A stretch of DNA of 64,000 nucleotides from a virus (taxonomy: Duplodnaviria > Caudoviricetes). The DNA lies in the IMG/VR virus record IMGVR_UViG_3300029305_003192; one strand, written 5' to 3'. Positions within the stretch are counted from its first letter, which is position 1. The number at the start of each line of letters is the position of its first letter. Made by a program: the position numbers and the translations under genes. Below are positions 2 through 64,000 of this stretch, piece by piece. The notes below the pieces were generated by a model. It was not told where the DNA came from. It saw nothing but the letters and a program-made list of their open reading frames with translations, and made no database searches.

Positions 2-149
2 TACTATGCTAAATATAATAACTGTACAATATCAGAGGCCAATGATGCAATCCTGAAAGCACAGTCACGATTCGATAAGCAGGTATATTACACCATGCTC
101 TATATGGTTAATACGAATGATATCCATGTAATAGTTAACAGAAATCCGT
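2..149 (+). CDS. RNA polymerase beta' catalytic subunit (probably non-virion RNAP), upstream exon, 5'-truncated by window
   Basis: Frame from nt 2 reads YYAKYNNC...DIHVIVNRNP; NRxP is the conserved beta' motif preceding the DFDGD loop; frame then hits a stop inside the intron. Confidence 0.9.
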
Positions 150-526
150 TAGCATATAGCGGCTCCCAGTCGTGAGGCTGGTGAGAAAACTCTACTTTAT
201 ACGGGGAAATGCTAGCCACCTCTTTTGAGGTTCCGTGCTACATTTACAAGCGTTAGCATAATCCGTAGCCAGGTCTCAGTTTACTGAGACAAGGTTCAAC
301 GACTATCGAAAGGGTAATCCGATACTTACATCGGGTGAGTAACCGAGTAGAGTAGGGCCAAGTGGTAGGTTTCTAGATGATATTAGTCTAGAGTGATTCC
401 TTTAAACCGAAATGATGAGCATCTCATAAGAGTTTATGAGTTGGTGATATAGTCTACGCAACATGGTAACATGTTGAACCCAGTACTGGGTTGATGGTAA
501 TTAACGACTACCATTTACTTGCACGG
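150..526 (+). ncRNA. Group I self-splicing intron (377 nt, no homing endonuclease ORF)
   Basis: Exon ends CCGU149 pairing with GCGG (U.G wobble, P1); P4 TACGGG 200-205/TCCGTA 262-267; R element GTTCAACGACTA 294-305; S element GATATAGTC 446-454 (P7 GACTA/TAGTC); terminal G526; splicing restores NRNP-S-INYGS in frame. Confidence 0.92.
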
Positions 527-3535: not shown

Positions 3536-3540
3536 CGGTA

Positions 3541-3574
3541 AATACCCCAGTACCATAAATGGTACTGGGGTATT
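3541..3574. terminator. Bidirectional intrinsic terminator
   Basis: Perfect inverted repeat AATACCCCAGTACCAT/ATGGTACTGGGGTATT between convergent units. Confidence 0.8.
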
Positions 3575-3594
3575 TTATGTAAAACTATAGAAAG

Positions 3595-4120
3595 GTTGCA
3601 TGTCTAATGCAAGCATATGTACTCAATAACAATGACCGGCAAGGGGTAGCTCTCACATTAACAATATGAAATCATGGAGTGATTTTTAATGAAATTGCTT
3701 TATGAATACCTGAGCGCGGAAATGTATGTAACGTTCACGCTACTCTCAATACACGGGCAACTGTTCGCAACATCGTCCGCCGTATATATCAACGAGGTCT
3801 CGGCACAATCCGTTACAAGTGGCTTACGCAACATTAAGTAGATTAAGCTGTATTCATTAGTCGATGAAATCATGAGCAAGAAAATATCGACGGATGTCTT
3901 TGCGAAACTTGAACACGCTTTGGCCGGAAGAATCCGCCATTTGAACTTTTTATCACGTTAACAGGTCCTCGCCACGTTAGTGGTGTTATCTCCGGGCATT
4001 TTATCGGTATAAGATATCGGGTATCTTCGAAACTACCCGGCCTTTGTCATTGTGTATCATAATAGGACGCATTCCGCCTATAGTGAATGGCAAGTCGTCC
4101 TACATATATGTCATATGGTG
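3595..4120 (-). ncRNA. Candidate large structured ncRNA (~520 nt)
   Basis: No ORF >60 aa; long-range helix ACAATGAC 3629-3636/GTCATTGT 4046-4053 enclosing several hairpins; wobble pattern weakly favours minus strand. Confidence 0.55.
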
Positions 4121-4128
4121 TATAGATT

Positions 4129-6999
4129 TTAAATGAAGAGTTTATCATTCTCAACCTGCTTGAGACGAATACGAGATGAGTGGAATTTCTTCATACCTGC
4201 ATTAACGAATGTATTAGGAACTGTAGCGAAGTTGATACCTACATTCATGAGGTCCATTTCATATGGTCTGGAGCCAATACATGCTGAGCATATCTTCTCA
4301 CCAATACAGCACATTGGTGAACGTACTTTGATTGGTTTATTGATAAACTGCTTATAGTTCTCGTCGGTGACAGTAACTAATTTACCCTCACCTACGATGA
4401 CATTCTGACCTTCAAGGTCACGCCAATTATCCTCGGTGTATGTCAATGTTAAGTAACCCTTAGTATGACAATCTGAACCCTCTTCGTCTACTACGGTAGC
4501 GCCGAACAGAGCATAGAACTGCTTTGTTACATAACCAGCATCGGCTGTACCTACGGACTTAGGATATGAAGCAGATACCACCATGTTACCAGCTTTTGCA
4601 ATTTCGTCCTTTCTAAAGCCTTCTACATAGCTCGACTTAATAACGTCAAACTGACCTGTACCAGCATTATAAATAGGACCAATCATAGTATTGATATTCT
4701 TAAGCTGGTCATCGACTTTAGCCTTAGCACCAGATGCGAACAAAGTTCTTGATGTATCGGCATCAATTTTCTTCTTAAGCATATCTACAAGCTCATCCTC
4801 AAGAGCAGCCACTTCATCCAATGTCGGATTCGGGTTTTCTTTGAAGAATTGCTCCTTACGGGCAATAATCTTCTTGTCTGGAATAATTGTAGCCTCTGTC
4901 ATAGACGATGCGAAAATAGTAGTTGTCTTATATGCATAGAACTGAATAGCCTTAAGGAATGGCCATACTTTATCCGTGGTAATTCTATCATACTTAATAG
5001 CTGTAGCTACAAGGGCAAAAAGTTTCTCATACCCCTTCTTATCAATAGGGATATTCCAGTATCCATCTGGGATAATCTCAACGATATATGGCTCAATGAT
5101 AATCTTATTGAATGTAAGAATACCCAGGGTTGTTTCAACCGGTTTCTTATTGGTATACTGATTAGCAGCAAGAGTTACTGTATCATAATGAATATATTTG
5201 GAATTCTTAATCTTCTTGGTTTCAAGGTCGGTAGTCGTAGCAAACCATTCAGTTAACTTCTTCATACCAATATTCTTGTAGTTGGTATTCAATATCTCAG
5301 CAACAGCATGGGCTGGTGCAGGCTTACCCTTAGGGTTAAACTGCATCATAGAGTAAAGACCAAGTACACCCTCGTTACCCAGGGTCTTAATAAGTTTACC
5401 CTGACAGTCGATATAGTGCTTCTTAGACATGATAATATTCATTGTCTCGTCGTTAGCTTCCTTAGAGAACATAGCACGATGAGATGTTTGGTCGCCATCA
5501 TAGTCACCGCCGATAGCTTCGAGGAACGAGTTATCCATATTAAGAGTATCGTTGAACGCTACTGCCACCTGCTCCGGTGGTGCATCAGGTTCTACTACTG
5601 GGTAATATGGAAACTCTTTCTCAATACCCTGAATTCGAAGCTTTATTGGTGTAGTTTTGATGGTTGATAATACATGAATCATTGATGGGAAGATACCAAA
5701 GTATGAGATAAGTGGATATCTAGTAACCCACGTGGTCTTATCTGACGAGACCTCGACCGCTGCGATATATAGTAAATCAGTCCAAGTGAAATCACGATCA
5801 GCGATAGGTGCCATACCATCAGCATTCGGATTCTTCGGATCAAAAGGTCTTCCTGCAAACTTCAGTGGAATAATCTTCTGACCACTCGGAGTCTTGATTC
5901 GTACAGTCACGGGTTCAAATCTTGTCTCATAGTTATCAATGAACTTATCAATTCGCTTCTTGATAAGATCTGCAGTATAATCCTGCATTGGGTCATCAAG
6001 CTCATATGATTCAACATTACCGCCTTTAAGTGCCAAATTAAGTCGGTTACCCGATACTTCAAACTGCTCAGAAAGGTAATTGGCTACCCAACGAGCAATG
6101 AATGGGAATAATGTAACACAAAGCTCAGCAAGTGGAATACCTGTATGATTAACGTCAATAGGCACTTCATCCGGAGTATCATACTGGTCAAGTACCATAC
6201 ATGAGATAACTGAACGGTGACCATAGTCCGGAGCTTTACCTACAACGTACTTATTGAAGAAACCATCGGATTTCTCAATGATACTTCTGAAGTATTTATG
6301 GAGTTCCAGAGTCTTAAGCTGAATGCGATACTTCGCAGCATGACCCATGAATAAGAATGTCTTATCATTCAATGACTTTGCAAGACGAATGATATCGATA
6401 TACATATTATTGACCTGTGGAATCTTAGCAGGTCCATCGCCGGTTCTTTCCACATCTCTGTAGAATACCGGCTGTACTACGAACTTATTGATGAATATTT
6501 CATTCGGTTCAAATGACTCAATCATATCGATACGTTCGTTACGCTCTCTGGATTTATTACGCTTCCATTTAATCTTTGAGTAGTTCTTGATAAACCAATC
6601 CAATCCACAGTTAGCTGGATTAGCCTTCGGGTCATCATCTTTAAGTTTAATGAGGTCACCATTTTCAGTAACCTCCCAACACCCTTCGCCGGCGATACAC
6701 TTCGATATATTCTGCTGAAGTTTAGTAAGGATTTCATAAACGAATGGATGTATGATAGTTGTATTGAGATCGATATAAGCATACTGGCGCTTACGTTCAT
6801 CGACTGTCTTACCGAATATCTCTTCGGAGAATAATCCATCCACTGTAGGGATACCTTCTCTCTCAAAGGATACTGGATTGGTAACAGGCTTCATTCCGAG
6901 ATACTTAATAGACAGGTCAATTACTTCTTGCGTCTGGATGTCTACCTTTAATGGGACATCCGGTCCGACGGTGCGGACATCTGGCATTTCGTTAGCCAT
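4129..6999 (-). CDS. RNA polymerase beta' catalytic subunit (probably virion RNAP)
   Basis: GLFSEEIFG, GKAPDYGHRSVI, TRYP, GGDYDGD and TADAGYVTK beta' motifs; AAGGAGG SD before ATG 6999; late-type promoter upstream. Confidence 0.9.
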   Translation of the reverse strand: MANEMPDVRTVGPDVPLKVDIQTQEVIDLSIKYLGMKPVTNPVSFEREGIPTVDGLFSEEIFGKTVDERKRQYAYIDLNTTIIHPFVYEILTKLQQNISKCIAGEGCWEVTENGDLIKLKDDDPKANPANCGLDWFIKNYSKIKWKRNKSRERNERIDMIESFEPNEIFINKFVVQPVFYRDVERTGDGPAKIPQVNNMYIDIIRLAKSLNDKTFLFMGHAAKYRIQLKTLELHKYFRSIIEKSDGFFNKYVVGKAPDYGHRSVISCMVLDQYDTPDEVPIDVNHTGIPLAELCVTLFPFIARWVANYLSEQFEVSGNRLNLALKGGNVESYELDDPMQDYTADLIKKRIDKFIDNYETRFEPVTVRIKTPSGQKIIPLKFAGRPFDPKNPNADGMAPIADRDFTWTDLLYIAAVEVSSDKTTWVTRYPLISYFGIFPSMIHVLSTIKTTPIKLRIQGIEKEFPYYPVVEPDAPPEQVAVAFNDTLNMDNSFLEAIGGDYDGDQTSHRAMFSKEANDETMNIIMSKKHYIDCQGKLIKTLGNEGVLGLYSMMQFNPKGKPAPAHAVAEILNTNYKNIGMKKLTEWFATTTDLETKKIKNSKYIHYDTVTLAANQYTNKKPVETTLGILTFNKIIIEPYIVEIIPDGYWNIPIDKKGYEKLFALVATAIKYDRITTDKVWPFLKAIQFYAYKTTTIFASSMTEATIIPDKKIIARKEQFFKENPNPTLDEVAALEDELVDMLKKKIDADTSRTLFASGAKAKVDDQLKNINTMIGPIYNAGTGQFDVIKSSYVEGFRKDEIAKAGNMVVSASYPKSVGTADAGYVTKQFYALFGATVVDEEGSDCHTKGYLTLTYTEDNWRDLEGQNVIVGEGKLVTVTDENYKQFINKPIKVRSPMCCIGEKICSACIGSRPYEMDLMNVGINFATVPNTFVNAGMKKFHSSRIRLKQVENDKLFI

Positions 7000-7027
7000 T
7001 ATATTTAACCTCCTTTGTGAAGTCAAT

Positions 7028-34831: not shown

Positions 34832-36892
34832 TCAGATATTCACGATGTTAGTATAATGCTGTGTTGTTGCACCTGTCTTCTGAATCTTTGGACCAAGTGG
34901 GTCGATGATAGGATTGATAAGGTTAACAACGTCTGTGATAATTTTGGATGAGTTGATTATATCTTTCATCCATGCTGGTAGATTAGTCATATCACGCGGT
35001 TTAGCTATACATGTGATAGACATAGTCCATTCATACTCATTAGATGACATAAGAATGTTCCGATAATAATTCTCGAAGATTTCTCTGTGCTCATAATATA
35101 GCTTCTTAAAAGGAACTGCTGCATCGGATTCTTTACTATTAAAGAATGCCTCTGGGTCATCACGCATCATGAGATACTTCTTCTTTGACATACCAGTATC
35201 CAGTGTAACTGGAACCAGGTCGACTTCAGCAGGGAATGCCATCTCTTCTGCAGGGTTAAATGCGTTCCAAAGATGCACCGCTTTATATCCCTGATTAGAC
35301 AATGGAGCTTTATATCTTGCAGCGGGATGAACCGTAAGCTGCTTATAGAGTGAGTTATCACCTTCCTGAAGCAGTACCTTAATCTCTGCTTCATATTCTC
35401 TTACAGCTCTTAGAATATTTCTCAAATCGATCTCCGGTGCAAGGATAATCTGGGTATCAATAAGCTCATGACATTTCTGTCTTACTGATTCCTTAGTACC
35501 GGCTTTCTTAAAGTCAAACCCAGCAACTACACGCTGGTTGTCGATGCCATTGATGAATTTACCCTCTTGGAGTAATACCTGACCAAAGTATCGTTTCTTA
35601 GCAGTACCAAATACGATAATTGGCCAATAAAGCTCGTTCTTCATTGCAAGCTTCTTACCCCACTCAGGGGCAATCTGTCTAGCCTCAGTAAATGATTCAA
35701 ATGCTTCTGAGATAGACATAGTCAGAATCATTGTGAAGATATTTACCGACTTAAATGTGAACTCATCCTTATTCTCAGTGATAGCATTCTTAAGTGAGTA
35801 AGCATACATAATATACTTAACTACCGAGATGAAGTTAGAGTCCGTGTCGATATAAAGTACCGCAGACTTATTAGTGTATCTAGTTCGACGTACTCTATCG
35901 AATATCTGGTGCTTATAAAGTACGAATACTTTGAGCATCTTAATGATTTCAAGCAGTATTGATTTAGAATCGTCACGTGCTACAGTATCACACCATTCTT
36001 CGCCCATAAAGTCGAATGTATCGATATCACCATTACGGAGAATGATGATAGAGTTGAGAAGCTCAGTATTAATTGACTGACAGAAAGGTATATTGAGGAA
36101 TTCGAAGAGATTATTCTTATAATACATCAGCTTGAGACAGTCCTCATCGGCGGAAGCAATTATTCTCGATATAATCATTGCCTCATCTTCAGTGATATTA
36201 AAACCGACCTTATCTGCAAGTCTATCGGCTACCTGCTTAGATGTTACTGGTGGTACTCTTGAGAATAATTTAAGCTCCTCGTCCGTAAGCTTTTCATAAT
36301 CATGTATGATATTCATCAGATATAATACAAACTCTGTCACGTTGACGAACTTGATATTGTCCGATATGAAGTTCTCGAAGTGACATGTTGCTGTCGAGAT
36401 GATTGCCTGACCCATAGCAGTAGTAGCCTGAGCAAGGTTGACATTGAATAGATGAAATTTCATGTAACCGAGGATACCATAGAGAGAGTTAAGCATAATC
36501 TTCTTGTTATTTTGTGCTAAGTCATACATCTGCCATTCTGTAGTACCTTTATCGAACGAATCCCTCTGTTTCTTGAGAGCCTTACGCTCTTTCATCAAGT
36601 CTGCAATCCATTCAGCAAGCAGACTCAGTTTCTGGGAATGTTGTACAAACATGCACCCATCCCCACCAAGGACAAGATTGTTTGTCAATATGAGTGATAT
36701 GACAACGGTCAATGATGAGCGTATGGATGTATTGCGATAGTTATTAACCATTGTACATTTAGGGTCCTTGACCTCTATATTATATATTTTACGTAGGGTC
36801 TTTTCCAGTACCTCTTCATCCCAATCAGGATGTGCGGTTCTAAGAACTTCTGAAGCCTGGGATACCCATTTATCTTCAAATCTTAGTGCCAT
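34832..36892 (-). CDS. Family B DNA polymerase, C-terminal (polymerase) subunit
   Basis: KIMLNSLYG (motif B), YIDTDS (motif C), KKRY; lacks exonuclease and motif A. Confidence 0.92.
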
Positions 36893-46429: not shown

Positions 46430-48280
46430 ATGATTAATTCCACAGTAAATTCTCTTGTTGGAACAATGTCACCGGTTGCTGCTTCACAGGCTTTCAAAGA
46501 TGACGTAGCTCACGTTATCCAGTCCTATGATCTGCAGGGCGGCAGTGCCATTGACAACATGCCTGTTATCGCAAGAAACAGCAGATGCCGTAGAGACTTC
46601 GTTGATATGGTAATGGAGTCCGTTGTAAACGATCCACAGCTTGCTTCTGGCGATGCTTCTCAGGATCCATTCTATTCTACATATGCTGACAGACTCGACC
46701 AGCTCCTTGAGAACTCTCTTATGGAAATGGCTCGTGAATCTGTTATGACAGGTTATGCTCCTATCCAGTCTTATGCACCATTCATGCTTAAGAGACAGTG
46801 GGTATCCTGCGTATGGAAGGACGTTCTTGCAGCAGACGTTGCTAAGTCCAATATCATCAAACTTCAGATGGAAGAAAGATGGGTAAAGGATGCTGAAGGT
46901 CAGAGATACAGAATCCCTGATGTATACTACAACAAGGATCTCATGGCTAAGCTCTTCAACGATGCTACAGGTATCAACCTTAAGCACGGCGAAGAAGACT
47001 TTATCGAACTTCCACTCCAGAACGAATGCCTTATCGCTCCTGATAAGAATTACTTCGAATCTGCTATCACTAACCCTAATTCCGAGACACTTACACATGA
47101 TTATACAATCTTTGAAGTAGTATTCGAAATCGGCGGCAAGGAATACAGAGTTCCATGTGATATCAAGCCTGACCTCTCTTCTCACGTACTCATCAACGGC
47201 AACAATGTTAAGTGCGTATACGAAGATGAAAACGGTGAAATCAAGTCCGAAACAGACTCCATTGTTGGTAATGTTGACTTCCAGACAGGTACAGTATCCG
47301 TATTCTCTACAAACGGTCTCATCAAGAAGTTCCGTCACAAGGGCAAGGCTGCTAACCGCTTCAACCACAGATCACTCTCCGTTGAGAGAACAATCAAGCC
47401 GCTCACATTCTACATGCCAGAATCCGGCCCAAGACTCAACGCTGCAGTAACTATCGAAGAAGCTCAGGACGCTATCGTTCTTAATAACACAGACCTCTAC
47501 GCTGATAACACTGATATGATGGGCGACGTTCTCGCTAACCTCCAGGATATCGGCATCAAGTCATTCGTTGAGAACTCCTATGAAGTTCACAGCAAGGCAA
47601 TCCAGGGTCCATTCGGCTATGAAGACAACTTCACAGCTTCCGGTTCCTTCAATGCAGTTCCAATTCAGAACTTCTCCATCGGTATCGACGCTTGGATGAA
47701 CCAGGCTAAGGAATACTTTGAGAGAGTCGTTGAAGAGCTTAAGTATAAGCTCAAGACACCTGACATCATCATCTGTGCTGTATGTCACCCATCTCTCGTA
47801 AGATACCTCAAGGCCGACGTTCGTTGGATCTTCTCTGACCAGACAGATGTATCTGGTGTTAAGCTCGCATACAAGGTTGGTGTTACAAACGCTAACGGCG
47901 ACAGAGTTCACATCATCACATCTACATACATGAGCCCTGAAGACCCAGTAAGACTCATCGTTATCCCAACAACAACTGAATGTATCACATTCAAGCATAT
48001 CATGCACTCCGCTATTATTGACAGAGGTTACCAGAACCCACTCGAGCCACTCGTACCAAACGTAATGGCTACTCAGAGAACTCTTACTTTCGAAGTAACT
48101 CCAGTTCAGGGTACATTCGAGATTACAGGCAGAGCTGGTAATACAAATTACGTGAATGCTAACGGCTTTATGTCCGGTCACGCTCCTAACGAGTACAACG
48201 GCGCATTTGTTGTAAACAACACAACAGCTGGTGGTACAGCAACAGGCGGCACAACTACAGATGAAACAACTGGCGGTTAA
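46430..48280 (+). CDS. Major capsid protein
   Basis: 616 aa, strongly biased codon usage, GAGGAGG SD, late-type promoter 46364-46375, ARES propeptide site, context between protease and terminase. Confidence 0.75.
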   Translation: MINSTVNSLVGTMSPVAASQAFKDDVAHVIQSYDLQGGSAIDNMPVIARNSRCRRDFVDMVMESVVNDPQLASGDASQDPFYSTYADRLDQLLENSLMEMARESVMTGYAPIQSYAPFMLKRQWVSCVWKDVLAADVAKSNIIKLQMEERWVKDAEGQRYRIPDVYYNKDLMAKLFNDATGINLKHGEEDFIELPLQNECLIAPDKNYFESAITNPNSETLTHDYTIFEVVFEIGGKEYRVPCDIKPDLSSHVLINGNNVKCVYEDENGEIKSETDSIVGNVDFQTGTVSVFSTNGLIKKFRHKGKAANRFNHRSLSVERTIKPLTFYMPESGPRLNAAVTIEEAQDAIVLNNTDLYADNTDMMGDVLANLQDIGIKSFVENSYEVHSKAIQGPFGYEDNFTASGSFNAVPIQNFSIGIDAWMNQAKEYFERVVEELKYKLKTPDIIICAVCHPSLVRYLKADVRWIFSDQTDVSGVKLAYKVGVTNANGDRVHIITSTYMSPEDPVRLIVIPTTTECITFKHIMHSAIIDRGYQNPLEPLVPNVMATQRTLTFEVTPVQGTFEITGRAGNTNYVNANGFMSGHAPNEYNGAFVVNNTTAGGTATGGTTTDETTGG

Positions 48281-50991: not shown

Positions 50992-51083
50992 CTGTCGAAT
51001 CGGGGTCGCTTCGGTGGCCTCGATTTTTTGCTCAAATATGTCCCTAGACAATTTCATAACCTTGAATGAAAGGAGGATATAAC

Positions 51084-53429
51084 TTGGCTACTATTATAAA
51101 TGATTCCAAGGTCAGGGTATTTAGAGATTATCATCCGGACTTAGATGATGATAATCATAAGCATGTCCCTCCGATGAATTTGGAATCCGATATAGGAACT
51201 ATGTCCAAGGATATGGAACAGGTTGTAGCTACTACTCTTCATGAGCATAAAGAAGCTATGACTGAATTCGATAGAAAGAATAACAAGAAGAAGAAACTGT
51301 ATCAATGGACCACTAGGAATAAAAGCTTCATTGAATTACATAATGACCTTAAGGTACTTGGGGTGAAAAATAATAAATTCTTCCTCAGATTATATGATGA
51401 AACTCTGATGGATATTGACCCCTATGCACTGGTAGTACCACCGGAAATACAGGCTCGTATCATTATCGAATGTATCCGTAACCCATGGTATTTCTTACGA
51501 GAAATATGCCGTATCCCAGTAGATGGTAAACCTATCTGTCCTGGTGGTGGTACATCATTCATTGCCGATAGAAATAATATCGCTACATGGTATCTTTTTT
51601 TGAATGGTATTGACCATTACTCATCAAAGCCTCGTCAGAGAGGTAAGACACAGGACGCCCTTGCTAAACTCAATTATAGCTTCCACTTCGGATGTACATC
51701 TGCGACCATTACATTGGCTAATAAAGACTTCACTCTTAATAAGATGAATCTTAGCCGACTAAAGACCCAAAGAGACATGTTGCCTTTATATCTTCAGATG
51801 AAATTATCTATCGACCAGACCACTGGTAAGGTTGAGAAGGAACAGAATAACGTACTCTCTATGGGTAATCCTATTAACTTTAATAAGATTCAGTTGCTTC
51901 CATCTGCATCTACAAGTGCTAAAGCACAGTCTGTAGGACGAGGTGTTACATCTGCTATCGTAATGTATGATGAGTTTGACTGGATGCCATATAACATGGA
52001 TATCTACTACGCGTCATCATTCTCATATAAGACAGCGTCTGATAATGCTAAGAAGAATATGTCACTCTATGGACGTATATTCACATCTACCCCTGGTAAT
52101 ATGGAAACCAAGGAAGGTCAGAATGCTGATATATTCATCAATGGTGATACTGATAATGATAACCATGGTCGTCCAATGCTCAAGTGGAAGGATAATTACT
52201 TCGACCTTCCTATCGAGAAGCTTAAGAGTATAGTAAACTCTAAATCGTATAACGGTATCGTCTACGTCGAACATACGTGGCAACAGCTTAAGTGCGATAA
52301 TAAATGGTATGAGGAAGCATGTCGAGGTGTTAACTATAACCCTGAGCAGATTGCTCGTGAAATTCTGCTTAAGAGACTTAGGGGTTCTTCCAAGTCACCG
52401 TTTAAGAGAACTCAACTCATGGGACTTCTTAACAATGTCGAGAGTCCTATTGATGAGGTGGACTATACTGATAACCTCTGCCCATTCTTCTTCTATGAGA
52501 AGCTTAATAAGCGAACCCCATACCTTATTGCAATCGACCCCGCTGAAGGTCTCAGCGGAGACAACCTTGCTGTGGTGGGCATAAGCCCGTTTACTGAGAA
52601 GGTAGCATTCGAATTCAAGACCCCATATATCAATCAGACTAAGATGGCTAAAATATTGGTCAAGTTCATGGACAACTTCTGTCCAAGAGGATTGATTATT
52701 ATCGAAAACAACCGAGGACGAGAACTTATCAACCAATTACTTCTTACGAAGTACGCCGACCACTTATGGTATGATACAGATAAGCTTGATAAGAAAGAAA
52801 CTATCAATACAAAAGATCTTGACCCTGAAGCAGAACGAGCGATTGGTTGGAATACTAGTCCGAAAACTCGTCCGATGATGATGGCAACTCTTGAGACTAT
52901 TGTAGTCGAAAGCCCTGAGAAGGCTAATAGTAAATTCGTAGTGGACGATATCTGCTCACTTGAAAGAGTCAATGGTTCTATTAAGGCTGCACCTGGCAAG
53001 CACGACGACGTCGCTTTAGCATTTTCCATGGGTCATACAGTTTATCGTACTGCCACCAATTTAAGTAACTGGGGTATTTATCCGGGCATGAAAGAAGCCC
53101 CGAATCTTGACCCTAGCGACCCACAATATAAAAAGAATGCCCTTGCTGCACTCATGGAATATCTGCCAGATGATCTTAAACAGATATTTGTCAGGGGTGT
53201 TAAGAAGGATGTCAATACTGATAATTCATCGATCAGAAGTAGTATCGAACGTGAAGCTGCTATGATTCATATGCAGGAAGTTGCTAGGAAATCACAGTTT
53301 GATGAAGATGCTGTCGATGAGACGATGATTGATAATGATGAGTTGTATGAAGAGGTATCAATGGATGAATTCTATAACCAGGCGGTATATAATCCAGATG
53401 CTAACCTCGACTTATCAGACTACTTTTAA
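51084..53429 (+). CDS. terL: Terminase large subunit
   Basis: Walker A PRQRGKT, Walker B VMYDEFD, TSTPG, nuclease IDPAEG, IENN and HDDV motifs; TTG start after AGGAGG. Confidence 0.9.
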   Translation: MATIINDSKVRVFRDYHPDLDDDNHKHVPPMNLESDIGTMSKDMEQVVATTLHEHKEAMTEFDRKNNKKKKLYQWTTRNKSFIELHNDLKVLGVKNNKFFLRLYDETLMDIDPYALVVPPEIQARIIIECIRNPWYFLREICRIPVDGKPICPGGGTSFIADRNNIATWYLFLNGIDHYSSKPRQRGKTQDALAKLNYSFHFGCTSATITLANKDFTLNKMNLSRLKTQRDMLPLYLQMKLSIDQTTGKVEKEQNNVLSMGNPINFNKIQLLPSASTSAKAQSVGRGVTSAIVMYDEFDWMPYNMDIYYASSFSYKTASDNAKKNMSLYGRIFTSTPGNMETKEGQNADIFINGDTDNDNHGRPMLKWKDNYFDLPIEKLKSIVNSKSYNGIVYVEHTWQQLKCDNKWYEEACRGVNYNPEQIAREILLKRLRGSSKSPFKRTQLMGLLNNVESPIDEVDYTDNLCPFFFYEKLNKRTPYLIAIDPAEGLSGDNLAVVGISPFTEKVAFEFKTPYINQTKMAKILVKFMDNFCPRGLIIIENNRGRELINQLLLTKYADHLWYDTDKLDKKETINTKDLDPEAERAIGWNTSPKTRPMMMATLETIVVESPEKANSKFVVDDICSLERVNGSIKAAPGKHDDVALAFSMGHTVYRTATNLSNWGIYPGMKEAPNLDPSDPQYKKNALAALMEYLPDDLKQIFVRGVKKDVNTDNSSIRSSIEREAAMIHMQEVARKSQFDEDAVDETMIDNDELYEEVSMDEFYNQAVYNPDANLDLSDYF

Positions 53430-57565: not shown

Positions 57566-58336
57566 ATGATTAGAGTTATTAAGAATGCGTCTGAATTAGA
57601 GACGAATATTCCCGGTATACGCAGCGAGAATGCTAAACGGTATTATTGTGATTATGCCATGGATCCATGGTCATCATCAGAGTTTATGTCCAGTGAAGAA
57701 ATTCAGATTGGAGATAATGAATATCAGATACGTTTTATATCTGAGATAGAATTCACGAATTACGGAATCGATATAAACGATATAACCGAGATATATACTG
57801 AATTGGTGTTGTTGAAGAGGGCTAAGACCAGGGGTCAGGATCACTTATATTTAGTGGTACGAGATAAGCAAACAGACATACCCATTGGTGTAGTACTGCT
57901 CAACGTATTTTTATCACAGGAGGATGAGGATGGTATACCTGATTTCGACGCATTGATTGATGTCAGTATCGGTACTTGCTGTGAAGCATATGTCGTACGC
58001 GAAATAGACAATATTCGCACATTAATGGGTAAAGGTATGATAAACGAGGCAGCAGTGGTAGTGGCATATAATATGGTATTAGCATTGAAAGAACTGCATG
58101 TTAAACTGCGACTTGCTGATAATGATAAAGAATTCGATATTAATTATGAGCCGACAATCGACGACCTTACGGAATTCGTATCCATATATCAGGGATTCCT
58201 TAAGTCTGAACTTAAGAGGTTGGGTATCATTACGGCTCCCACCCAATATGAGAAGGACATCATAAATCTTGTCGATAATATCATGAATGCAGTCAATGAT
58301 TCAGAATATGTAAAATGGAGGAAGAAACATCCATGA
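57566..58336 (+). CDS. Hypothetical protein
   Basis: AAGGAG SD; stop overlaps start of DNA polymerase subunit (ATGA). Confidence 0.75.
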   Translation: MIRVIKNASELETNIPGIRSENAKRYYCDYAMDPWSSSEFMSSEEIQIGDNEYQIRFISEIEFTNYGIDINDITEIYTELVLLKRAKTRGQDHLYLVVRDKQTDIPIGVVLLNVFLSQEDEDGIPDFDALIDVSIGTCCEAYVVREIDNIRTLMGKGMINEAAVVVAYNMVLALKELHVKLRLADNDKEFDINYEPTIDDLTEFVSIYQGFLKSELKRLGIITAPTQYEKDIINLVDNIMNAVNDSEYVKWRKKHP

Positions 58337-60213
58337 GATTTTTAGGAAATGAAGCTGAAGGGCGTCACGTGATGCCCTTATCAATCATTTATGATAACCC
58401 ACGAGAGGCATCAGATATGTTGATGATTCTTTATAAGGACATCGATACCGGTGAGAAGTTCGTCAAGAATATCGAGAATCCTGAAATTGACATCTATATT
58501 GTCAAGGAGCAATATAGAAACCAGAGCCCAGCTGAAAATCCGCTTAATATGGACGGTTCATATCGTCCCGACTTCTATATGAAAGACCAGTGCGATGTGG
58601 TTAGGGTTAAGTATCGTAAGCGAAAGTATGCGGCTGCGAAAATACTCGGTATATCACCGGAAGATGTTGATGCTTCACCATATGTCGGCGGAACCGATAT
58701 GGATATACGTCATTGGTACTTTGTAGAATTCTTACATGAATACAGTAATGATTTGCCAAAGCCTATTAGCGTAGGATACTACGATATCGAAGCCGATACC
58801 AGAGGTTATGGTACTAATGAATTCGGTGATAATTATGGTAAATTCCCAATTACTGCAATCACTTATATATCAGACGTTCGAAACCAGGTATATGTATTCG
58901 TCCTCAATTGTCCGGAGTTCGGAAGAATGGATGAGATTATAAATAATACCGAAGGTTTGCGTCGAGAGATGCACGAAGAGTTTGATGAGAAGTTCGGTAC
59001 CATGGAGTATAACATCGTTATATTCGATAAAGAAATCGAAATGATAAACGCGTTTTGGGCATTGGTAAAGGCTGTTGAAGACGACTTCACCCTCGCGTGG
59101 AACGCACCATTCGATATCGGTAACCTGACATATCGACCAGCCGAACTGGGATATGACCCAGTATCAATTATTCATGACCCACGATTTGCTCGTAAGGTCG
59201 TGATATTCAATGAAGACAGAGCGACATTCGTTGCACATAAGAAGAGACATAAGATAACCTATACATTACCTACTATCCTGGACGACCACATGCGTATATA
59301 TTCCGGTGTCAGATCAGCTAGAGGTAAGCTTCCTAGTACAGCACTCGATAAAGTTGCTAAACGTGAGAAGATAGGTGGAAAGAAGACATATGAGGGTGAC
59401 ATCAACCAGTTCATGCTCACTAACTTCTGGGATTATATTATCTACAACGTTAACGACGTTCATTTGATGAGAGCTATCAATAATAAGGTCAATGATACTG
59501 GAGACATTTATTCACGTATGCTTAACTCAGGCGTGTCGAATGATGAGGTATTCGTATCCACTACTATCTGGGCACAGTATATCAAGAATGACCTCGAATC
59601 AAAACGTGGTAGATTCTTGGCTAATAATAAGAATAAATTCCTGGCAAAGACCCAAGAAATTATCGAGTATGGCTTCGACAGTGATGCTGTTGATGAAGAT
59701 GATGGAGACGATGAGGATGAATCCGATGAATGTCTCCAGGAGGTGCTCGGGGCTATTGCAGACCAGCAGAACCTTATCGATGAGAAGACGGGTAAGAAGA
59801 AGAAATTCGCAGGTGCTATAGTACTCGATACCCGTCGTACCAGATATACAGGTACTAAGATTAATGGTATGGAGTGCAACTTCGTACATCGACATGCCAT
59901 AGACCAGGATATCACATCCGAGTATCCTACAGCAATCACTATCAGTAACCAGTCAAATGATACATTCGTTGGAAAGATTTATGTCGACGATGCCGATGAA
60001 ATCAAACTCCCGTTCTATGAGCAATATAGCTTCTTGGATAATAAAGACGCTAGCGAATATAAGTGCAACAAGGCTGCACTTATGCTCGAGACAGCTATCC
60101 AGGGCGACTATATGATGGTAGGCGAGATAGCATTAGGATTACCTAAGTTGGCTGACTTAGAGAAGATGGTTATAAACATGGCCGGAGATAAACTTACGAA
60201 GGGAGATAAATAA
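58333..60213 (+). CDS. Family B DNA polymerase, N-terminal subunit (3'-5' exonuclease + motif A)
   Basis: ExoI YDIEAD, ExoII AWNAPFD, ExoIII YNVND, AGAIV and DITSEYP (motif A). Confidence 0.9.
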   Translation: MRFLGNEAEGRHVMPLSIIYDNPREASDMLMILYKDIDTGEKFVKNIENPEIDIYIVKEQYRNQSPAENPLNMDGSYRPDFYMKDQCDVVRVKYRKRKYAAAKILGISPEDVDASPYVGGTDMDIRHWYFVEFLHEYSNDLPKPISVGYYDIEADTRGYGTNEFGDNYGKFPITAITYISDVRNQVYVFVLNCPEFGRMDEIINNTEGLRREMHEEFDEKFGTMEYNIVIFDKEIEMINAFWALVKAVEDDFTLAWNAPFDIGNLTYRPAELGYDPVSIIHDPRFARKVVIFNEDRATFVAHKKRHKITYTLPTILDDHMRIYSGVRSARGKLPSTALDKVAKREKIGGKKTYEGDINQFMLTNFWDYIIYNVNDVHLMRAINNKVNDTGDIYSRMLNSGVSNDEVFVSTTIWAQYIKNDLESKRGRFLANNKNKFLAKTQEIIEYGFDSDAVDEDDGDDEDESDECLQEVLGAIADQQNLIDEKTGKKKKFAGAIVLDTRRTRYTGTKINGMECNFVHRHAIDQDITSEYPTAITISNQSNDTFVGKIYVDDADEIKLPFYEQYSFLDNKDASEYKCNKAALMLETAIQGDYMMVGEIALGLPKLADLEKMVINMAGDKLTKGDK

Positions 60214-60976: not shown

Positions 60977-61231
60977 ATGGCAAATATTTATATATGTACA
61001 GACCGCCAGCCTGTGAGTGAAGAATTCTCTAAGAGCGTCGCTGGCGTATCTCTTTTACTCAAAAGGAGTAAAGTTGATGGTAAGCTCGCTGTTATCAGCG
61101 CAGCGAGCGGTGAGATCCTTTGGGTGACGACGGCCATCCAGCATGAGGAACGAGACGTACCTGGTACTGATCTCGTTATCGTGACGGCGAATTCCAAATA
61201 TACATTTAGAAAGATTGGTGAAACAGTATAA
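60977..61231 (+). CDS. Small hypothetical beta-rich protein, stand-alone gene
   Basis: 84 aa, AGGAGG SD, flanked by terminators. Confidence 0.75.
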   Translation: MANIYICTDRQPVSEEFSKSVAGVSLLLKRSKVDGKLAVISAASGEILWVTTAIQHEERDVPGTDLVIVTANSKYTFRKIGETV

Positions 61232-61299
61232 TCTCACCAATCTCCTCACCCGCCAATTGGTGGGTGATTTTTTTGCTATAAATCGATACAAAGAGTATA

Positions 61300-61941
61300 A
61301 TGATATCACTATGGATACCGTAACCTATATTAGTATGTGTGGTACATGTACATGGTTATAATCCGAACGATACCATTATATCAAAACTTCCAACGGGTAT
61401 AGTGGTAGTGTATACATCTTATTCAGAGATATCAGATGTATACTTACGTTTTAACATATGATTGGTAGTACGAGGTTCGTTACTACCATTACAATATCGA
61501 TATCTCATCGTCATATGTTAGTAGTGTTTGGCTGCCAAACTATAAAGCCTATCATTCTTATTTTCTTAAAGAACACAATTTGTCATCTCTGTCCCTGACT
61601 AACTAAGTTCATCCTCTACTCCGGCATATTCAGATGCCATTGAGACTCGATACGTTGATGCCGGTTAGTATATGCTCGCATGCAGTGATTATATCATACG
61701 AACACTATTCGGTGATAGCTATCATATAAGACTCCAATGAGCTTCGTAATGAGTAGATTGACGAGACTGGATTTAATTCTAGTAGCGTATCGAAAGTTAT
61801 GCGGTTATAGATGAGCATTGATAGTTAAGCTGCTTTGGCTAGTAGTGCGATTATACACAGATATGGAGTATAAAATATCGCTATCATTTTATCCTCTCAT
61901 TAGTGAGTAGAGTTGAGCTTCTACGGATGGGTTAGAGTTAT
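61300..61941 (+). ncRNA. Candidate large structured ncRNA (~640 nt)
   Basis: No ORF >60 aa; many 7-10 bp local and long-range stems; G.U pairs favour plus strand; ends at terminator 61942-61977. Confidence 0.6.
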
Positions 61942-61977
61942 AATACCAGGTATACCATTAATGGTATACCTGGTATT
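61942..61977. terminator. Intrinsic terminator
   Basis: AATACCAGGTATACCAT/ATGGTATACCTGGTATT. Confidence 0.8.
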
Positions 61978-62061
61978 TGTCCCCGACTTAGCTTAGAATA
62001 GCGAAAAACAGCCATATAACCTATATAACCAATTTCAATAAGAAAGAGGTGGACTATAAGT

Positions 62062-64000
62062 ATGGCTTCTAATAGAAGTAAAAGCAAAGTATTACAGAAT
62101 GCCGAGAAGGCATTTAAGTACTCAGCAGTACCGGCTATTACGAGTAAAGTACCGTATATGACTGGTACTGCACAGAGTGCTATATCAGTCGCGAAGGACC
62201 TTCGCGACTGGACAATCAGAAATAACCCGTTTAGAGCAGTGAATGGTAACAAAGACCCATTGATTAGACAGATCGCCACTGCAACCGCAAATGCTGTTAA
62301 ATCGGCAAAATTGGATCTTAAGTCTGGGGACTTGACATTTAGGAATCTAAATAAGGCTGTTAGAGATTTCGTAGGCGAAGATTCATTGTTGGACGGCTTT
62401 GATAATCTGGACATCGATTTCGGTTCCGACCTCGGGGACTCATTATTTTCGAATTCGGGACAGGACGACCAGACCTCTGATATTACCACCGCATCTGCAA
62501 TGATGGCAGTGGGCGACACGTTGTCACGAACTCAGGCGGTTACCACAGAGGCGATGATTGGTGCTGTAGAACATTCGACAGAAAGAATCACTAAAACCCA
62601 AATGGTTATGACTGATACTGCAGTAACACGACTAATATCCAGTAACATGACTATAGCCGCCAGGACTTCGACTCAATTAGGTACGATCTCCGAAGACATA
62701 AAAGTTGTGAATAAAAATCTCTCGCTACTGGTTGAGCAGTCGAACAGTTTCTCTTCATTTATCAACCAGTCACAGAGATATATGGAGCATACCGAGCAGA
62801 CATTGAACGATATTAAAGCATTATTGGAGGCCAGTCATTCTCAGGGTAAGAATGACGGATATGGTGGTAGTTATAATGACGGATTTATGTCTGGACACTT
62901 CGACATCAAAAAATATATCCACCATATATTCAATAATACATCCTCTGGTATCATTGCATCTCAGGTAATCGGTACCACTATGAAAGCTCTTAAGATGGAA
63001 CTGCCCTCATTTATTGATGAGATGAATGCTTTCTCCATCGGAGATTTGAATCCTCTCAAGATGGGTATTGAGAAGCTTATCCCTGCAATTGGAAGAATTG
63101 CTGATTTGGATAAAACTTTCGAGCGGTCGATTAAGATGTTCATGGCCAGACTTGCAGAAGGAGAATACGGAGGATTCCTCAATGGCTTAGGTGTAGAGGG
63201 ATTCGGCATGAGAGAGCGTAACCGTGTTATTTACGACTCGAGATATTACGAAAAAGGTAATATGCAGTGGAACGGTATGGCTCAGCGCGCTTTGATGGAG
63301 GTTATCCCAGGATACTTATCTAGTATGGAAGGCTATCTCAAACAGATAGCTGAGAATACATATAAAGGTAAAGATAGGTATGCACTTAACACATCGTCGC
63401 TCCGTCACTTCGATTATGATCTTGGGCAATTTGCAACTTTGAGTGATATACGCGAAAGAACTAAGAAAGAATTAACATCATCTCTTCAGAGTTCATATGA
63501 TAATTTCGTTGAGATGACAGAAAAAATCACCAATGGCTCGGACGAGCTGAACCAGGAGCTCACCAATTATCTGCGAAAGATTAATAGCTCAGAGAACGAT
63601 AGTAAGATTTCACGTAAAGAATGGATGAACGAATTTAAGGCTATCGTTGGAAAACATCGTAAAGATGGTATTACTGACGACCAGATAATGAAGGCATATG
63701 ATGCATTGGTATGGGCTCGAGAGCAGTCCCTAGACGAAAGGAACCGAATTCGTACGGCAGCTGCACGAAGAGAATCCAGTGCATTTTATCTTGGCGATGA
63801 GCTCAATACCATGACCCCAGACCTGGTATATAAGGGACTGAAGGAGATTAAGCAGGATCGATATAATTCGCTATCTGAAAATGATAAGAAAGAGGCCGAC
63901 CGTCAGAAACGAAACGAAGAACGGAGGAAGGGCTTCTTCGAAAAAACAGTAGCCAAATTGGGATTAACTGATGATGCTAAAGCAATAAAGGAAATGTTTA
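62062..64000 (+). CDS. Large late virion protein, possibly tape measure (3'-truncated by window)
   Basis: Late-type promoter 62007-62018, GAGGTG SD, frame MASNRSKSKVLQNAEKAFKY... appears open to window end; absent from ORF track because no stop. Confidence 0.6.
   Translation, partial: MASNRSKSKVLQNAEKAFKYSAVPAITSKVPYMTGTAQSAISVAKDLRDWTIRNNPFRAVNGNKDPLIRQIATATANAVKSAKLDLKSGDLTFRNLNKAVRDFVGEDSLLDGFDNLDIDFGSDLGDSLFSNSGQDDQTSDITTASAMMAVGDTLSRTQAVTTEAMIGAVEHSTERITKTQMVMTDTAVTRLISSNMTIAARTSTQLGTISEDIKVVNKNLSLLVEQSNSFSSFINQSQRYMEHTEQTLNDIKALLEASHSQGKNDGYGGSYNDGFMSGHFDIKKYIHHIFNNTSSGIIASQVIGTTMKALKMELPSFIDEMNAFSIGDLNPLKMGIEKLIPAIGRIADLDKTFERSIKMFMARLAEGEYGGFLNGLGVEGFGMRERNRVIYDSRYYEKGNMQWNGMAQRALMEVIPGYLSSMEGYLKQIAENTYKGKDRYALNTSSLRHFDYDLGQFATLSDIRERTKKELTSSLQSSYDNFVEMTEKITNGSDELNQELTNYLRKINSSENDSKISRKEWMNEFKAIVGKHRKDGITDDQIMKAYDALVWAREQSLDERNRIRTAAARRESSAFYLGDELNTMTPDLVYKGLKEIKQDRYNSLSENDKKEADRQKRNEERRKGFFEKTVAKLGLTDDAKAIKEMF

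What the first reader, a model, noticed from the sequence alone, without database searches (positions are those of the whole stretch)
61280..61977. ~640-nt highly structured non-coding unit with its own terminator
Seen: largest ORF-free gap. Stems TATCACTAT 61304-12/ATAGTGGTA 61399-407; GTATACATCT 61410-19/AGATGTATAC 61434-43; TAACATATGA 61452-61/TCATATGTTA 61511-20 enclosing TGGTAGTA/TACTACCA; CCGGCAT 61621-27/ATGCCGG 61658-64; long-range CTCTACT 61614-20/AGTAGAG 61906-12 and ATGCTC 61672-77/GAGCAT 61813-18; a C-GAAA-G tetraloop at 61791-96. A possible promoter (ACAA-N6-TA or TATAAT) lies at ~61288-61301. Inference: a large multi-domain RNA, possibly a new class; an origin of replication is the alternative.
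Basis: partly seen in the sequence, partly recalled or inferred. Interest (0 to 1): 0.76.

Follow-up and report, generated by a model that had tools for sequence, protein, structure and literature searches.

The report
New large structured jumbo-phage RNA
The largest gene-free stretch of this jumbo-phage fragment encodes a roughly 670-nucleotide, elaborately folded non-coding RNA with its own promoter and terminator; diverged relatives keep its shape but not its sequence, it matches no catalogued RNA family, and its function is unknown.

Summary

It is a discrete unit: upstream terminator, TATAAT-type promoter (predicted +1 at 61308), about 670 nt of RNA, then an 18-bp terminator hairpin (61942-61977). 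An AR9-type late promoter (AACA-N6-TA, 62007-62018) follows and serves a 3396-aa tape-measure-like gene.

The same layout lies upstream of the homologous giant gene in six further lineages of uncultivated AR9-like jumbo phages. One lineage (L013) lacks it at this position.

The RNA has two domains:
- A closed multi-helix 5' domain with two hairpins capped by invariant GGU triloops.
- A 3' domain that folds as a single irregular rod of about 100-140 bp.

Compensatory changes support the helices: 21 of 72 pairs against L010, 17 of 33 in the distant subgroup, 8 of 9 in hairpin H1. Each exceeds all or nearly all of 500 shuffles.

Substitutions between close strains spare paired sites and tolerate G.U only on the + strand.

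I found no Rfam family, no conserved reading frame, no iterons and no GC-skew turn at the locus.

Verdict: a real, probably new family of large structured phage ncRNA. Its function is inferred only.

The parts
61246..61274 (+). Intrinsic terminator of the preceding 84-aa ORF (stem 61246-61267 plus T7); marks the upstream border of the unit
   Evidence: 9-bp stem, 6 G-C, T-run. An equivalent hairpin plus T-run stands upstream of the gap in L010, L012 and L016-L019.
61273..61301 (+). Promoter-like site TTGCTA-N17-TATAAT; the -10-like hexamer is followed by 6 nt and a purine (predicted +1 = A61308)
   Evidence: 10 of 12 consensus. Hexamer-N6-purine recurs in all 7 lineages: TATAAT, TTTAAT x2, TATTAA x4, read. 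It resembles the AR9 early-promoter geometry ...TATTAT-(6N)-G+1 (PMC5312081). The TSS is inferred, not measured.
61308..61525 (+). 5' domain: closing helix P0 (61308-12/61521-25) around three arms, P1b/P1c/H1, P23/H2/H3 and H4
   Evidence: Model R3 (72 bp) finds L010 4236-4461 at E=4.6e-15. On that alignment 97.9% of cells pair and 21 pairs have changes on both sides, against 7.1 in shuffles (0/500) and 3 or fewer when partners are slid.
61333..61351 (+). Hairpin H1, 8 bp, invariant GGU triloop closed by U-A
   Evidence: Gapless 7-row alignment A6: 8 of 9 pairs compensatory, 88.9% paired against 12-63% when slid, 0/500 shuffles.
61371..61407 (+). Hairpin H2, 12 bp, 13-nt loop
   Evidence: L010 keeps UACC.../...GGUA ends, a changed inner stem and the same 13-nt loop length.
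61410..61443 (+). Hairpin H3, 10 bp, with conserved loop ...CAGAGAUAUC
   Evidence: 6 of 10 pairs compensatory against L010. L004 and L008 carry two A-to-G changes that give G.U on the + strand.
61452..61520 (+). H4: outer 10-bp stem, inner 11-bp hairpin with the second GGU triloop (61463-61488), conserved internal loop ...GAUAUCUC...
   Evidence: The inner 4 bp compared over 9 rows are all compensatory, 0/500 shuffles. L012 replaces the outer stem with a different complementary pair of arms.
61426..61506 (+). Candidate pseudoknot: H3 loop 61426-61433 with H4 internal loop 61499-61506 (8 bp)
   Evidence: Read directly from the sequence. The same complementarity is present in L010 (7 bp) and, shifted by one position, in L012 (CGAGA(U)/(A)UCUCG). 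Both partners are conserved in sequence, so there is no true covariation: candidate only.
61605..61920 (+). 3' domain: long irregular hairpin ('rod'), closed by 61605-22/61903-20, with a small side hairpin at 61623-38
   Evidence: The maximum ladder distance of the MFE equals or nearly equals all base pairs (98-140) in L004, L010 and L016-L019 and exceeds 40 of 40 shuffles. For the window copy and L012 the MFE is more branched (7 of 40 shuffles reach it).
61754..61802 (+). Conserved block at the tip of the rod (apical hairpin plus C-GAAA-G hairpin 61786-61803)
   Evidence: blastn block against L010 4697-4744. The GAAA hairpin stem differs in sequence but still pairs in L010.
61942..61983 (+). 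Terminator hairpin (perfect 16-18 bp) with a short U-rich tail; 3' end of the RNA
   Evidence: The top of the stem changes in a compensatory way in L004 and L009. A strong hairpin of unrelated sequence stands at the same place in every lineage, with a T6-7 run in L016-L019. The consensus terminator scan did not call the window copy because its T-run is short.
62007..62018 (+). AR9-type late promoter AACA-N6-TA of the giant gene (not part of the RNA)
   Evidence: The motif is defined in PMC5312081. There are 44 in the record, 17 of them intergenic, and 15 lie 18-102 nt upstream of same-strand ORFs, including major head, giant gene and portal. It is present at this place in all 7 lineages.
62062..64000 (+). 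Start of the 3396-aa giant ORF (runs to window coordinate 72252, beyond the window); tape-measure-like
   Evidence: Peptidase_C39_2. tblastn hit to the AR9 'tail tape measure protein' g204, 26% over 232 aa.

Best explanation
Window 61308 to about 61980 (+ strand) is a free-standing gene for a stable, highly structured non-coding RNA of about 670 nt. It represents a family that I could not find in any catalogue. The family is carried by a clade of uncultivated AR9/PBS1-like jumbo phages. Shown by comparison: it sits between two terminators, behind its own TATAAT-type promoter. It is separated from the downstream giant tape-measure-like gene by that gene's own late promoter. It folds into (i) a closed multi-helix 5' domain whose two GGU-capped hairpins keep their loops while their stems covary, and (ii) a 100-140-bp unbranched but irregular 3' hairpin. 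Inferred, not shown: it acts in trans as an RNA scaffold or decoy. The two identical GGU loops would be sequence-specific docking sites, either for a protein (possibly a dimer) or for RNA-RNA contacts. The rod would be a platform or spacer, by analogy with other large 'ornate' phage-associated RNAs. The confidence given is for 'real, independently expressed structured ncRNA of a new family'. The scaffold or decoy mechanism on its own deserves about 0.25.
For: The unit is an ORF-free gap of 740-900 nt (about 750 in L012 if a doubtful 52-aa minus-strand ORF is disregarded), bracketed by terminators and lying upstream of the homologous giant gene. It is present in 7 lineages whose giant proteins are only 27-72% identical. 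Covariation is documented. Strand-specific substitution pattern: paired sites 2.9-3.2% changed against 7.2-7.7% for unpaired, Fisher p 0.0065-0.038 on the + strand, no difference on the - strand; 10 of 10 variable pairs kept by G.U on + and 0 of 10 on -. GGU-triloop hairpins of 6 bp or more: 7 in the 7 units, against 15 in 217 kb of the record counting both strands. The rod shape exceeds 40 of 40 shuffles in 6 of 8 sequences. Six-frame similarity between lineages is equal in all frames and on both strands, so no reading frame is conserved. No Rfam match in the window or in six related loci. The late promoter between RNA and giant gene shows two separate transcription units.
Against: There are no expression data of any kind, and all sequences are metagenomic. 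Only 7 lineages exist, effectively 3 plus 4. The link between the two subgroups rests on synteny, architecture, the GGU loops and the shared promoter/+1 geometry. Models built from the window group find L010 (E=1e-8 to 7e-20) but L012 only weakly (E=0.02-0.07 within its own gap), and L016-L019 not at all. Alignment A10 was fitted to the structure. The folding-energy z of the window copy is within the range of coding controls. One related phage (L013) has no such unit in front of its giant gene. The promoter class is ambiguous: it fits sigma-70, an AR9-early-like geometry and a one-off late-like TACA-N7-TA, but it does not fit this genome's own early consensus. Nothing identifies a binding partner.
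Confidence: 0.62

Rival explanations
1. Cis-acting element of the giant gene. The RNA would be a long leader or insulator: it stops early read-through into the late structural operon, or it modifies RNA polymerase for processive transcription of the 10-kb gene, in the manner of HK022 put or EAR-type antitermination RNAs.
For: The downstream neighbour is invariant (the giant gene) while upstream neighbours differ between lineages. Two conserved hairpins recall put or nut-like sites. A terminator follows immediately.
Against: In every lineage a late promoter of the genome-wide AACA-N6-TA class lies between the terminator and the Shine-Dalgarno sequence, so the giant gene has its own start. L016-L019 terminators are canonical, with T6-7. 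670 nt and a 100-140-bp rod far exceed what known antitermination RNAs need (from my own knowledge). L013 expresses a homologous giant gene without the unit.
Confidence: 0.14
2. Replication element: an origin whose transcript primes DNA synthesis, like a ColE1 RNA II primer or the R-loop transcripts of T4 oriF/oriG.
For: It lies next to a DNA polymerase B piece (58315-60213). Its size is like RNA II, and it is a structured 5' domain behind a promoter (comparison from my own knowledge).
Against: No iterons or other strong direct repeats. No GC-skew turn at the locus. A strong terminator gives a discrete RNA. In L016-L019 the upstream genes called on the fetched 3-4 kb are not polymerase genes. 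G.U-tolerant, strand-specific covariation indicates selection on the folded RNA, which is compatible with a primer but is not specific evidence for one.
Confidence: 0.06
3. Remnant or unusual form of a mobile RNA element: an ORF-less group I or II intron, a retron-like or guide RNA.
For: Its size equals that of an ORF-less group II intron, and it has a GAAA-capped hairpin. The same record carries a bona fide group I intron at 140-476.
Against: No intron, retron or omega-RNA family appears even at E up to 10 or in the relatives. It lies between genes and between terminators, not inside an exon. No reverse transcriptase or nuclease gene showed up among the neighbouring ORFs scanned against Pfam and PHROGs. 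Its position is stable across lineages, which argues against mobility.
Confidence: 0.05
4. It encodes one or more very small proteins, or it is simply fast-evolving spacer whose hairpins are chance.
For: Small ORFs of 30-48 aa exist. L012 and L017 have 105-109-aa stop-free frames. The window's MFE z is not exceptional.
Against: No frame is conserved, and similarity is frame-independent. Compensatory changes and loop conservation are far above shuffled and slid controls.
Confidence: 0.04

Closest known systems
ROOL and GOLLD RNAs (large 'ornate' RNAs, often phage- or prophage-borne; cryo-EM shows RNA-only homo-oligomeric complexes, PMC12286853)
   Same: Size class (about 0.6-0.8 kb), multi-domain fold, phage association, own promoter and terminator, no known function, conserved loops that could make tertiary or intermolecular contacts.
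   Different: No match to either Rfam model, even at E up to 10. No neighbouring tRNA genes. The 3' half is one long unbranched rod rather than a multi-junction fold. The host is a clade of AR9-like jumbo phages. Oligomerisation is untested.
6S RNA and other rod-shaped decoy RNAs (e.g. adenovirus VA RNA); comparison from my own knowledge
   Same: A long irregular double-stranded rod made by one hairpin; a plausible role in host takeover by a virus that brings its own RNA polymerase.
   Different: The rod is about twice as long as 6S. An extra 220-nt 5' domain is present. There is no 6S model hit, and I identified no conserved central bubble.
phi29 pRNA (packaging RNA); comparison from my own knowledge
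   Same: A phage-encoded structured RNA expressed from its own promoter; conserved loops could mediate ring formation; it lies in a region with terminase, portal and head genes.
   Different: It is four times larger, has no sequence or model similarity, and nothing ties it to packaging.
Cis antitermination RNAs (HK022 put, EAR) and the ColE1 RNA II primer; comparison from my own knowledge
   Same: Promoter-proximal structured RNA with paired hairpins, placed in front of a very long gene or next to replication genes.
   Different: A late promoter separates it from the gene. It has a discrete terminator, is much larger, and has no origin features.

Membership tests
ROOL / GOLLD (Rfam families) | Scores against the family covariance model | tested here: not met
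   cmscan of the window at gathering threshold, and of 61150-62100 at E up to 10: no ROOL or GOLLD hit. Six related loci: nothing.
ROOL / GOLLD (Rfam families) | Frequent adjacency to tRNA genes in phages or prophages (from my own knowledge of the literature) | tested here: not met
   ARAGORN finds no tRNA in the 64-kb window.
Large ornate phage-associated ncRNA (descriptive kind, not a homology family) | More than 500 nt, no conserved ORF, multiple covariation-supported helices, phage-borne | tested here: met
   phage context.
Group I / group II introns | Match to the intron covariance models; insertion within a gene | tested here: not met
   No hit at E up to 10, while the same scan finds the true group I intron at 140-476. 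The unit lies between terminators and between genes.
6S RNA | Match to the 6S models; rod with a central open-promoter-like bubble | tested here: inconclusive
   No model hit. A rod shape is present, but I could not define a conserved central bubble.
Replication origin | Iterons or an AT-rich unwinding element; GC-skew inflection | tested here: not met
   Only short, weak direct repeats. GC 0.37 against about 0.40 for the genome. The skew minimum is at about 42-50 kb.
Independent transcription unit | Own promoter and own terminator, on the same strand, conserved in relatives | tested here: met
   (consensus and comparative evidence only; transcription was not measured).
AR9-type late promoter (for the box at 62007-62018) | AACA-(6N)-TA/G upstream of late or structural genes (PMC5312081) | tested here: met
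   15 copies lie 18-102 nt upstream of same-strand ORFs, including major head, portal and the giant gene.

The most novel reading that the evidence does not exclude
This would be a previously undescribed class of large ornate RNA, specific to a clade of jumbo phages that carry their own multisubunit RNA polymerase. Its invariant GGU loops and 100-140-bp rod would build a higher-order RNA or RNA-protein assembly with a role in infection, such as host takeover, anti-defence decoy or virion assembly, and with no counterpart among known RNA classes.
Probability: 0.4. Interest if true: 0.85.

Novelty: new variant of a known kind. Interest (0 to 1): 0.72.

Why it matters
Large bacterial and phage RNAs above 500 nt with complex conserved folds are rare: OLE, GOLLD, ROOL, HEARO and a handful more. 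Each has opened new biology, and the recent ROOL and GOLLD structures show RNA-only homo-oligomeric complexes (PMC12286853). Here is a candidate new family with a clear gene anatomy and an unusual two-part architecture. It sits in jumbo phages that run their own transcription machinery, where no such RNA has been described in the sources I could search. The sequences and coordinates given make it directly testable by in vitro transcription, chemical probing, cryo-EM and pull-downs. If the RNA turns out to be a decoy or scaffold used in host takeover or virion assembly, it would add an RNA layer to jumbo-phage biology.

Tried and rejected
1. DNA similarity to 50,697 phage records: none.
2. Relatives of the flanking proteins in IMG/VR and JGI metagenomes, by single protein and by alignment: none. 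All relatives came from ENA and Logan contigs through exact-protein look-ups, which are now exhausted.
3. Pattern scan for the conserved box in IMG/VR: one spurious coding hit. The box later turned out to be a late promoter.
4. I first guessed the box was a special operator because it is unique in the window. I rejected this once the looser AACA-N6-TA motif proved genome-wide.
5. Count of long-range base pairs as a statistic: it does not discriminate from shuffles. I replaced it with ladder distance.
6. Folding-energy z-score as evidence for the window copy: weakened by coding controls.
7. Covariance models seeded from the window group cannot reach L016-L019 and barely reach L012. Cross-subgroup homology therefore stays an inference.
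8. MAFFT misaligns the 5' part between lineages. My own structure-aware aligner gave only partial alignments of the 3' domain, so I could make no per-pair covariation count for the rod.
9. Alternative genetic codes: no gene opens.
10. AR9 itself has only a 240-nt gap before its tape-measure gene, so no cultured model carries the unit at this position.
11. Pfam RNA polymerase domains were not found in the record, but PHROGs identify a jumbo-phage RNAP beta subunit.
12. Complementarity between the RNA (61521-34) and the giant mRNA 5' end (62009-24) appears in the window group's MFE but is not conserved in L010, so I rejected it as a regulatory pairing.

Full report
CONTEXT. The window is the reverse strand of G000:C1:24968-88967, an IMG/VR virus record of 108.7 kb that CheckV rates 45% complete. 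The identical giant protein also occurs on a 239.7-kb contig, so the phage is a jumbo phage of about 240 kb.
- It encodes a jumbo-phage-type RNA polymerase beta subunit (4129-7026, phrog_2986/2962, E=3e-88) and a major head protein (46430-48280).
- It also encodes a large terminase (51066-53429) and a split family-B DNA polymerase, with pieces at 58315-60213 and 34832-36892.
- The nearest cultured relatives are Bacillus phages BpSp, Goe21, AR9 and PBS1, at about 31% terminase identity.
- The AR9 late-promoter motif AACA-(6N)-TA/G (PMC5312081) is used genome-wide. There are 44 copies, 17 of them intergenic, although only 8% of the record is non-coding. Fifteen lie 18-102 nt upstream of same-strand ORFs, including head, portal and the giant gene.

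THE OBSERVATION.
- The stretch 61310-62061 is the largest gap without an ORF of 60 aa or more in the whole record.
- Nothing opens under table 4 or TAG=Q.
- Folding energy is lower than in shuffles on both strands (z about -3.9). Nine coding controls gave z between +1.05 and -3.6, so I do not count energy as evidence for this copy.

GENE ANATOMY. Reading 5' to 3':
- The 84-aa ORF (60977-61231) ends in a canonical terminator (61246-61267 plus T7).
- TTGCTA-N17-TATAAT follows at 61273-61301.
- The ORF-free RNA comes next.
- A perfect 16-18-bp hairpin (61942-61977) has a short U-rich tail.
- The late promoter AACAGCCATATA sits at 62007-62018.
- The Shine-Dalgarno sequence GAAAGAGGTG precedes the 3396-aa ORF (62062-72252).
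This ORF carries Peptidase_C39_2 and matches the AR9 tape-measure protein g204.

RELATIVES. The N-terminal 700 aa of the giant protein has 16 homologues in the 5.8-billion-protein set. Fetching their contigs gave the following.
- Close strains L004-L009 are about 95% identical in the gap. The neighbouring polymerase gene is equally conserved (95.5%), so this says nothing special about the gap. The giant gene itself is mosaic: identity falls to about 65-68% downstream of 62276 in L008 and L009.
- L010 and L012 have giant proteins 47% and 36% identical. L016, L017, L018 and L019 are at 27-29%.
- Except for L013 (see the limits below), every contig that reaches far enough upstream has an ORF-free gap of 740-900 nt (about 750 in L012 if a doubtful 52-aa minus-strand ORF is disregarded) in front of the giant gene. 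Each gap has an upstream terminator, a strong downstream hairpin of unrelated sequence (with T6-7 in L016-L019) and the AACA-N6-TA box.
- In all seven lineages a -10-like hexamer (TATAAT; TTTAAT twice; TATTAA four times) is followed by 6 nt and a purine. The first closing helix of the fold begins within a base or two of that purine. From this I infer the +1 at A61308.
- This geometry fits both a sigma-70 promoter and the AR9 early class (...TATTAT-6N-G). It does not match this genome's own apparent early consensus (...ATATATCATATTAGTAG, seen before 7134-, 43108+ and 56049+). The polymerase and the timing therefore remain open.

STRUCTURE OF THE 5' DOMAIN (61308-61525). P0 (61308-12/61521-25) closes a junction of three arms:
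- P1b/P1c/H1, where H1 is 61333-51 with a GGU triloop.
- P23 enclosing H2 (61371-407) and H3 (61410-43, loop ...CAGAGAUAUC).
- H4 (61452-520), which has a 10-bp outer stem, an inner hairpin with the second GGU triloop and a conserved internal loop ...GAUAUCUC... .
Evidence for this fold:
- A covariance model of the whole domain, seeded only from the window and L004, finds L010 4236-4461 end to end at E=4.6e-15.
- On the resulting alignment 97.9% of cells pair. Twenty-one of 72 pairs, in eight of nine helices, are changed on both sides. Shuffles give 7.1 (0/500) and slid partners give 3 or fewer. This alignment is fitted to the model, which favours pairing; the slid control addresses that.
- L012 is aligned over exactly the boundaries I had read by eye (4340-4539), but at only 6.9 bits (E=0.024 in its own 749-nt gap). 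Its helices P0, P1b, H1, H3 and both stems of H4 have different sequences that still pair.
- H1 was aligned without gaps and without reference to pairing across seven rows from both subgroups. Eight of 9 pairs are compensatory, and 88.9% pair against 12-63% when slid (0/500).
- The inner four pairs of the second GGU hairpin are all compensatory across nine rows (0/500).
- In L016-L019 a plain MAFFT alignment gives 17 of 33 pairs compensatory against 5.6 in shuffles (0/500). The helices counted are the closing helix P2, H1, a UGGAAU-loop hairpin and the second GGU hairpin.
- Uninterrupted GGU-triloop hairpins of 6 bp or more occur 7 times in the 7 units, against 15 times in 217 kb of the record.
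- The H3 loop (61426-33) is complementary to the H4 internal loop (61499-506) in the window, L010 and L012. This is a plausible pseudoknot, but both sides are conserved, so it is unproven.

STRUCTURE OF THE 3' DOMAIN (61605-61920). In L004, L010 and L016-L019 the minimum-energy fold is one unbranched, irregular hairpin of 98-140 bp.
- Its ladder distance equals or nearly equals the number of pairs and exceeds all 40 dinucleotide shuffles.
- Domain z-scores run from -2.0 to -6.6.
- For the window copy and L012 the predicted fold is more branched (7 of 40 shuffles reach it).
- Sequence is conserved only near the tip: window 61754-61802 matches L010 4697-4744, and L016-L019 share an AGGAGCG...CGUUCCU hairpin.
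- I could not align the rod well enough between lineages to count covariation pair by pair.

STRAND AND RNA VERSUS DNA. With a fold predicted from one sequence alone, substitutions seen in the other strains hit paired sites 2.9-3.2% of the time and unpaired sites 7.2-7.7% on the + strand (Fisher p 0.0065-0.038). On the - strand there is no difference (p 0.14-0.71). Nine of 12 variable pairs are kept on the + strand against 5 of 12 on the - strand. In the joint fold of window and L004, all 10 variable pairs are kept through G.U or U.G on the + strand, and none would be kept on the - strand. T-runs follow the hairpins on the + strand only.

NOT CODING, NOT KNOWN, NOT AN ORIGIN.
- Six-frame translations of the units resemble each other equally in all frames and on both strands.
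- Rfam 15 gives nothing at the gathering threshold in the window or in six related loci. Between 61150 and 62100 only noise appears at E of 0.8 or more. The same scan does find a real group I intron at 140-476.
- There are no tRNAs, no iterons and no skew turn at the locus.
- Literature searches turned up large catalogues of candidate phage RNAs (PMC10690425, PMC8040213) that I could not query by sequence. I found no description of an RNA at this position in AR9-like phages.
- AR9 itself has only 240 nt before its tape-measure gene.

MECHANISM.
- Shown: this is a conserved, strand-specific, structure-constrained, ORF-free unit with promoter-like and terminator elements of its own, separated from the next gene by that gene's promoter.
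- Inferred: it is made as a discrete stable RNA that acts in trans.
- Reasoning: invariant loops on covarying stems are the classic signature of sequence-specific recognition, and there are two copies. The rod, whose shape but not sequence is kept, looks like a platform or spacer. I therefore favour a scaffold or decoy role, either as an RNP or as an RNA-only assembly like ROOL and GOLLD (PMC12286853), at about 25% for that specific mechanism.
- The constant position in front of the giant gene keeps a cis role alive (14%). An origin or primer role (6%), a mobile-element remnant (5%) and small peptides or chance (4%) are less likely.

LIMITS.
- There are no expression data.
- Only seven lineages are available.
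- Homology between the window group and the L016 group is inferred from synteny and architecture.
- One relative (L013) lacks the unit at this place.
- The scan had noted this same stretch once before, in an overlapping window of the same genome (e1-5691372), and not on other DNA.

Noticed in passing
window 140-476 (+): Group I catalytic intron (Rfam RF00028, 56.8 bits, E=9e-12), next to an ORF that ends at 175. It probably interrupts a gene.
   Followed up: no
window 3536-4128: Second-largest ORF-free gap of the record (593 nt). It has a strong terminator hairpin at 3536-3579 and then about 540 nt that fold into many helices on both strands. It could be another non-coding element or small genes.
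   Followed up: partly
whole record; e.g. window 46364, 48376, 50008, 53446, 62007, 72302, 75337 (+): The AR9-type late promoter AACA-N6-TA is enriched upstream of structural genes: 15 copies lie 18-102 nt before same-strand ORFs. This phage therefore very likely uses an AR9-like non-virion RNA polymerase.
   Followed up: yes
upstream of window 7134(-), 43108(+), 56049(+), and about 57496: A shared AT-rich motif ...ATATAT(C/T)AT-ATTAGTA-(G/A) resembles the AR9 early consensus AAATATATATTAT-6N-G. It is probably this phage's early-promoter class.
   Followed up: partly
window 58315-60213 (+) and 34832-36892 (-): The family-B DNA polymerase is split into two genes 21 kb apart on opposite strands: an exonuclease part and a polymerase part.
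   Followed up: no
window about 62276 onward; L008, L009: The giant tape-measure-like gene is mosaic. L008 and L009 are 82-97% identical to the window through the RNA unit (as far as each contig reaches) and the first 215 nt of the gene. Identity then drops to about 65-68% nt (49% aa), which implies a recombination breakpoint just inside the gene.
   Followed up: partly
L009, L011, L015 (contig starts 112-184 nt before the giant gene); L008 starts inside the RNA: Several assemblies break at or near the terminator palindrome or inside the RNA. This is probably an assembly artefact of the long perfect hairpins, and it limits recovery of homologues.
   Followed up: no
G000:C1:105946 (+ strand of the record, outside the window): An 8-bp hairpin whose loop region reads GAGGTTC, the same as the second GGU hairpin of the RNA, on the opposite strand and far away. 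It may be chance.
   Followed up: no
window 4129(-) and 43619(+) upstream regions: Two unrelated genes (RNAP beta-like and a 624-aa ORF) share a near-identical promoter region of about 45 nt, TTTTTTTGCTTTTAGAAG...AAAACCTCTATATAA.
   Followed up: no
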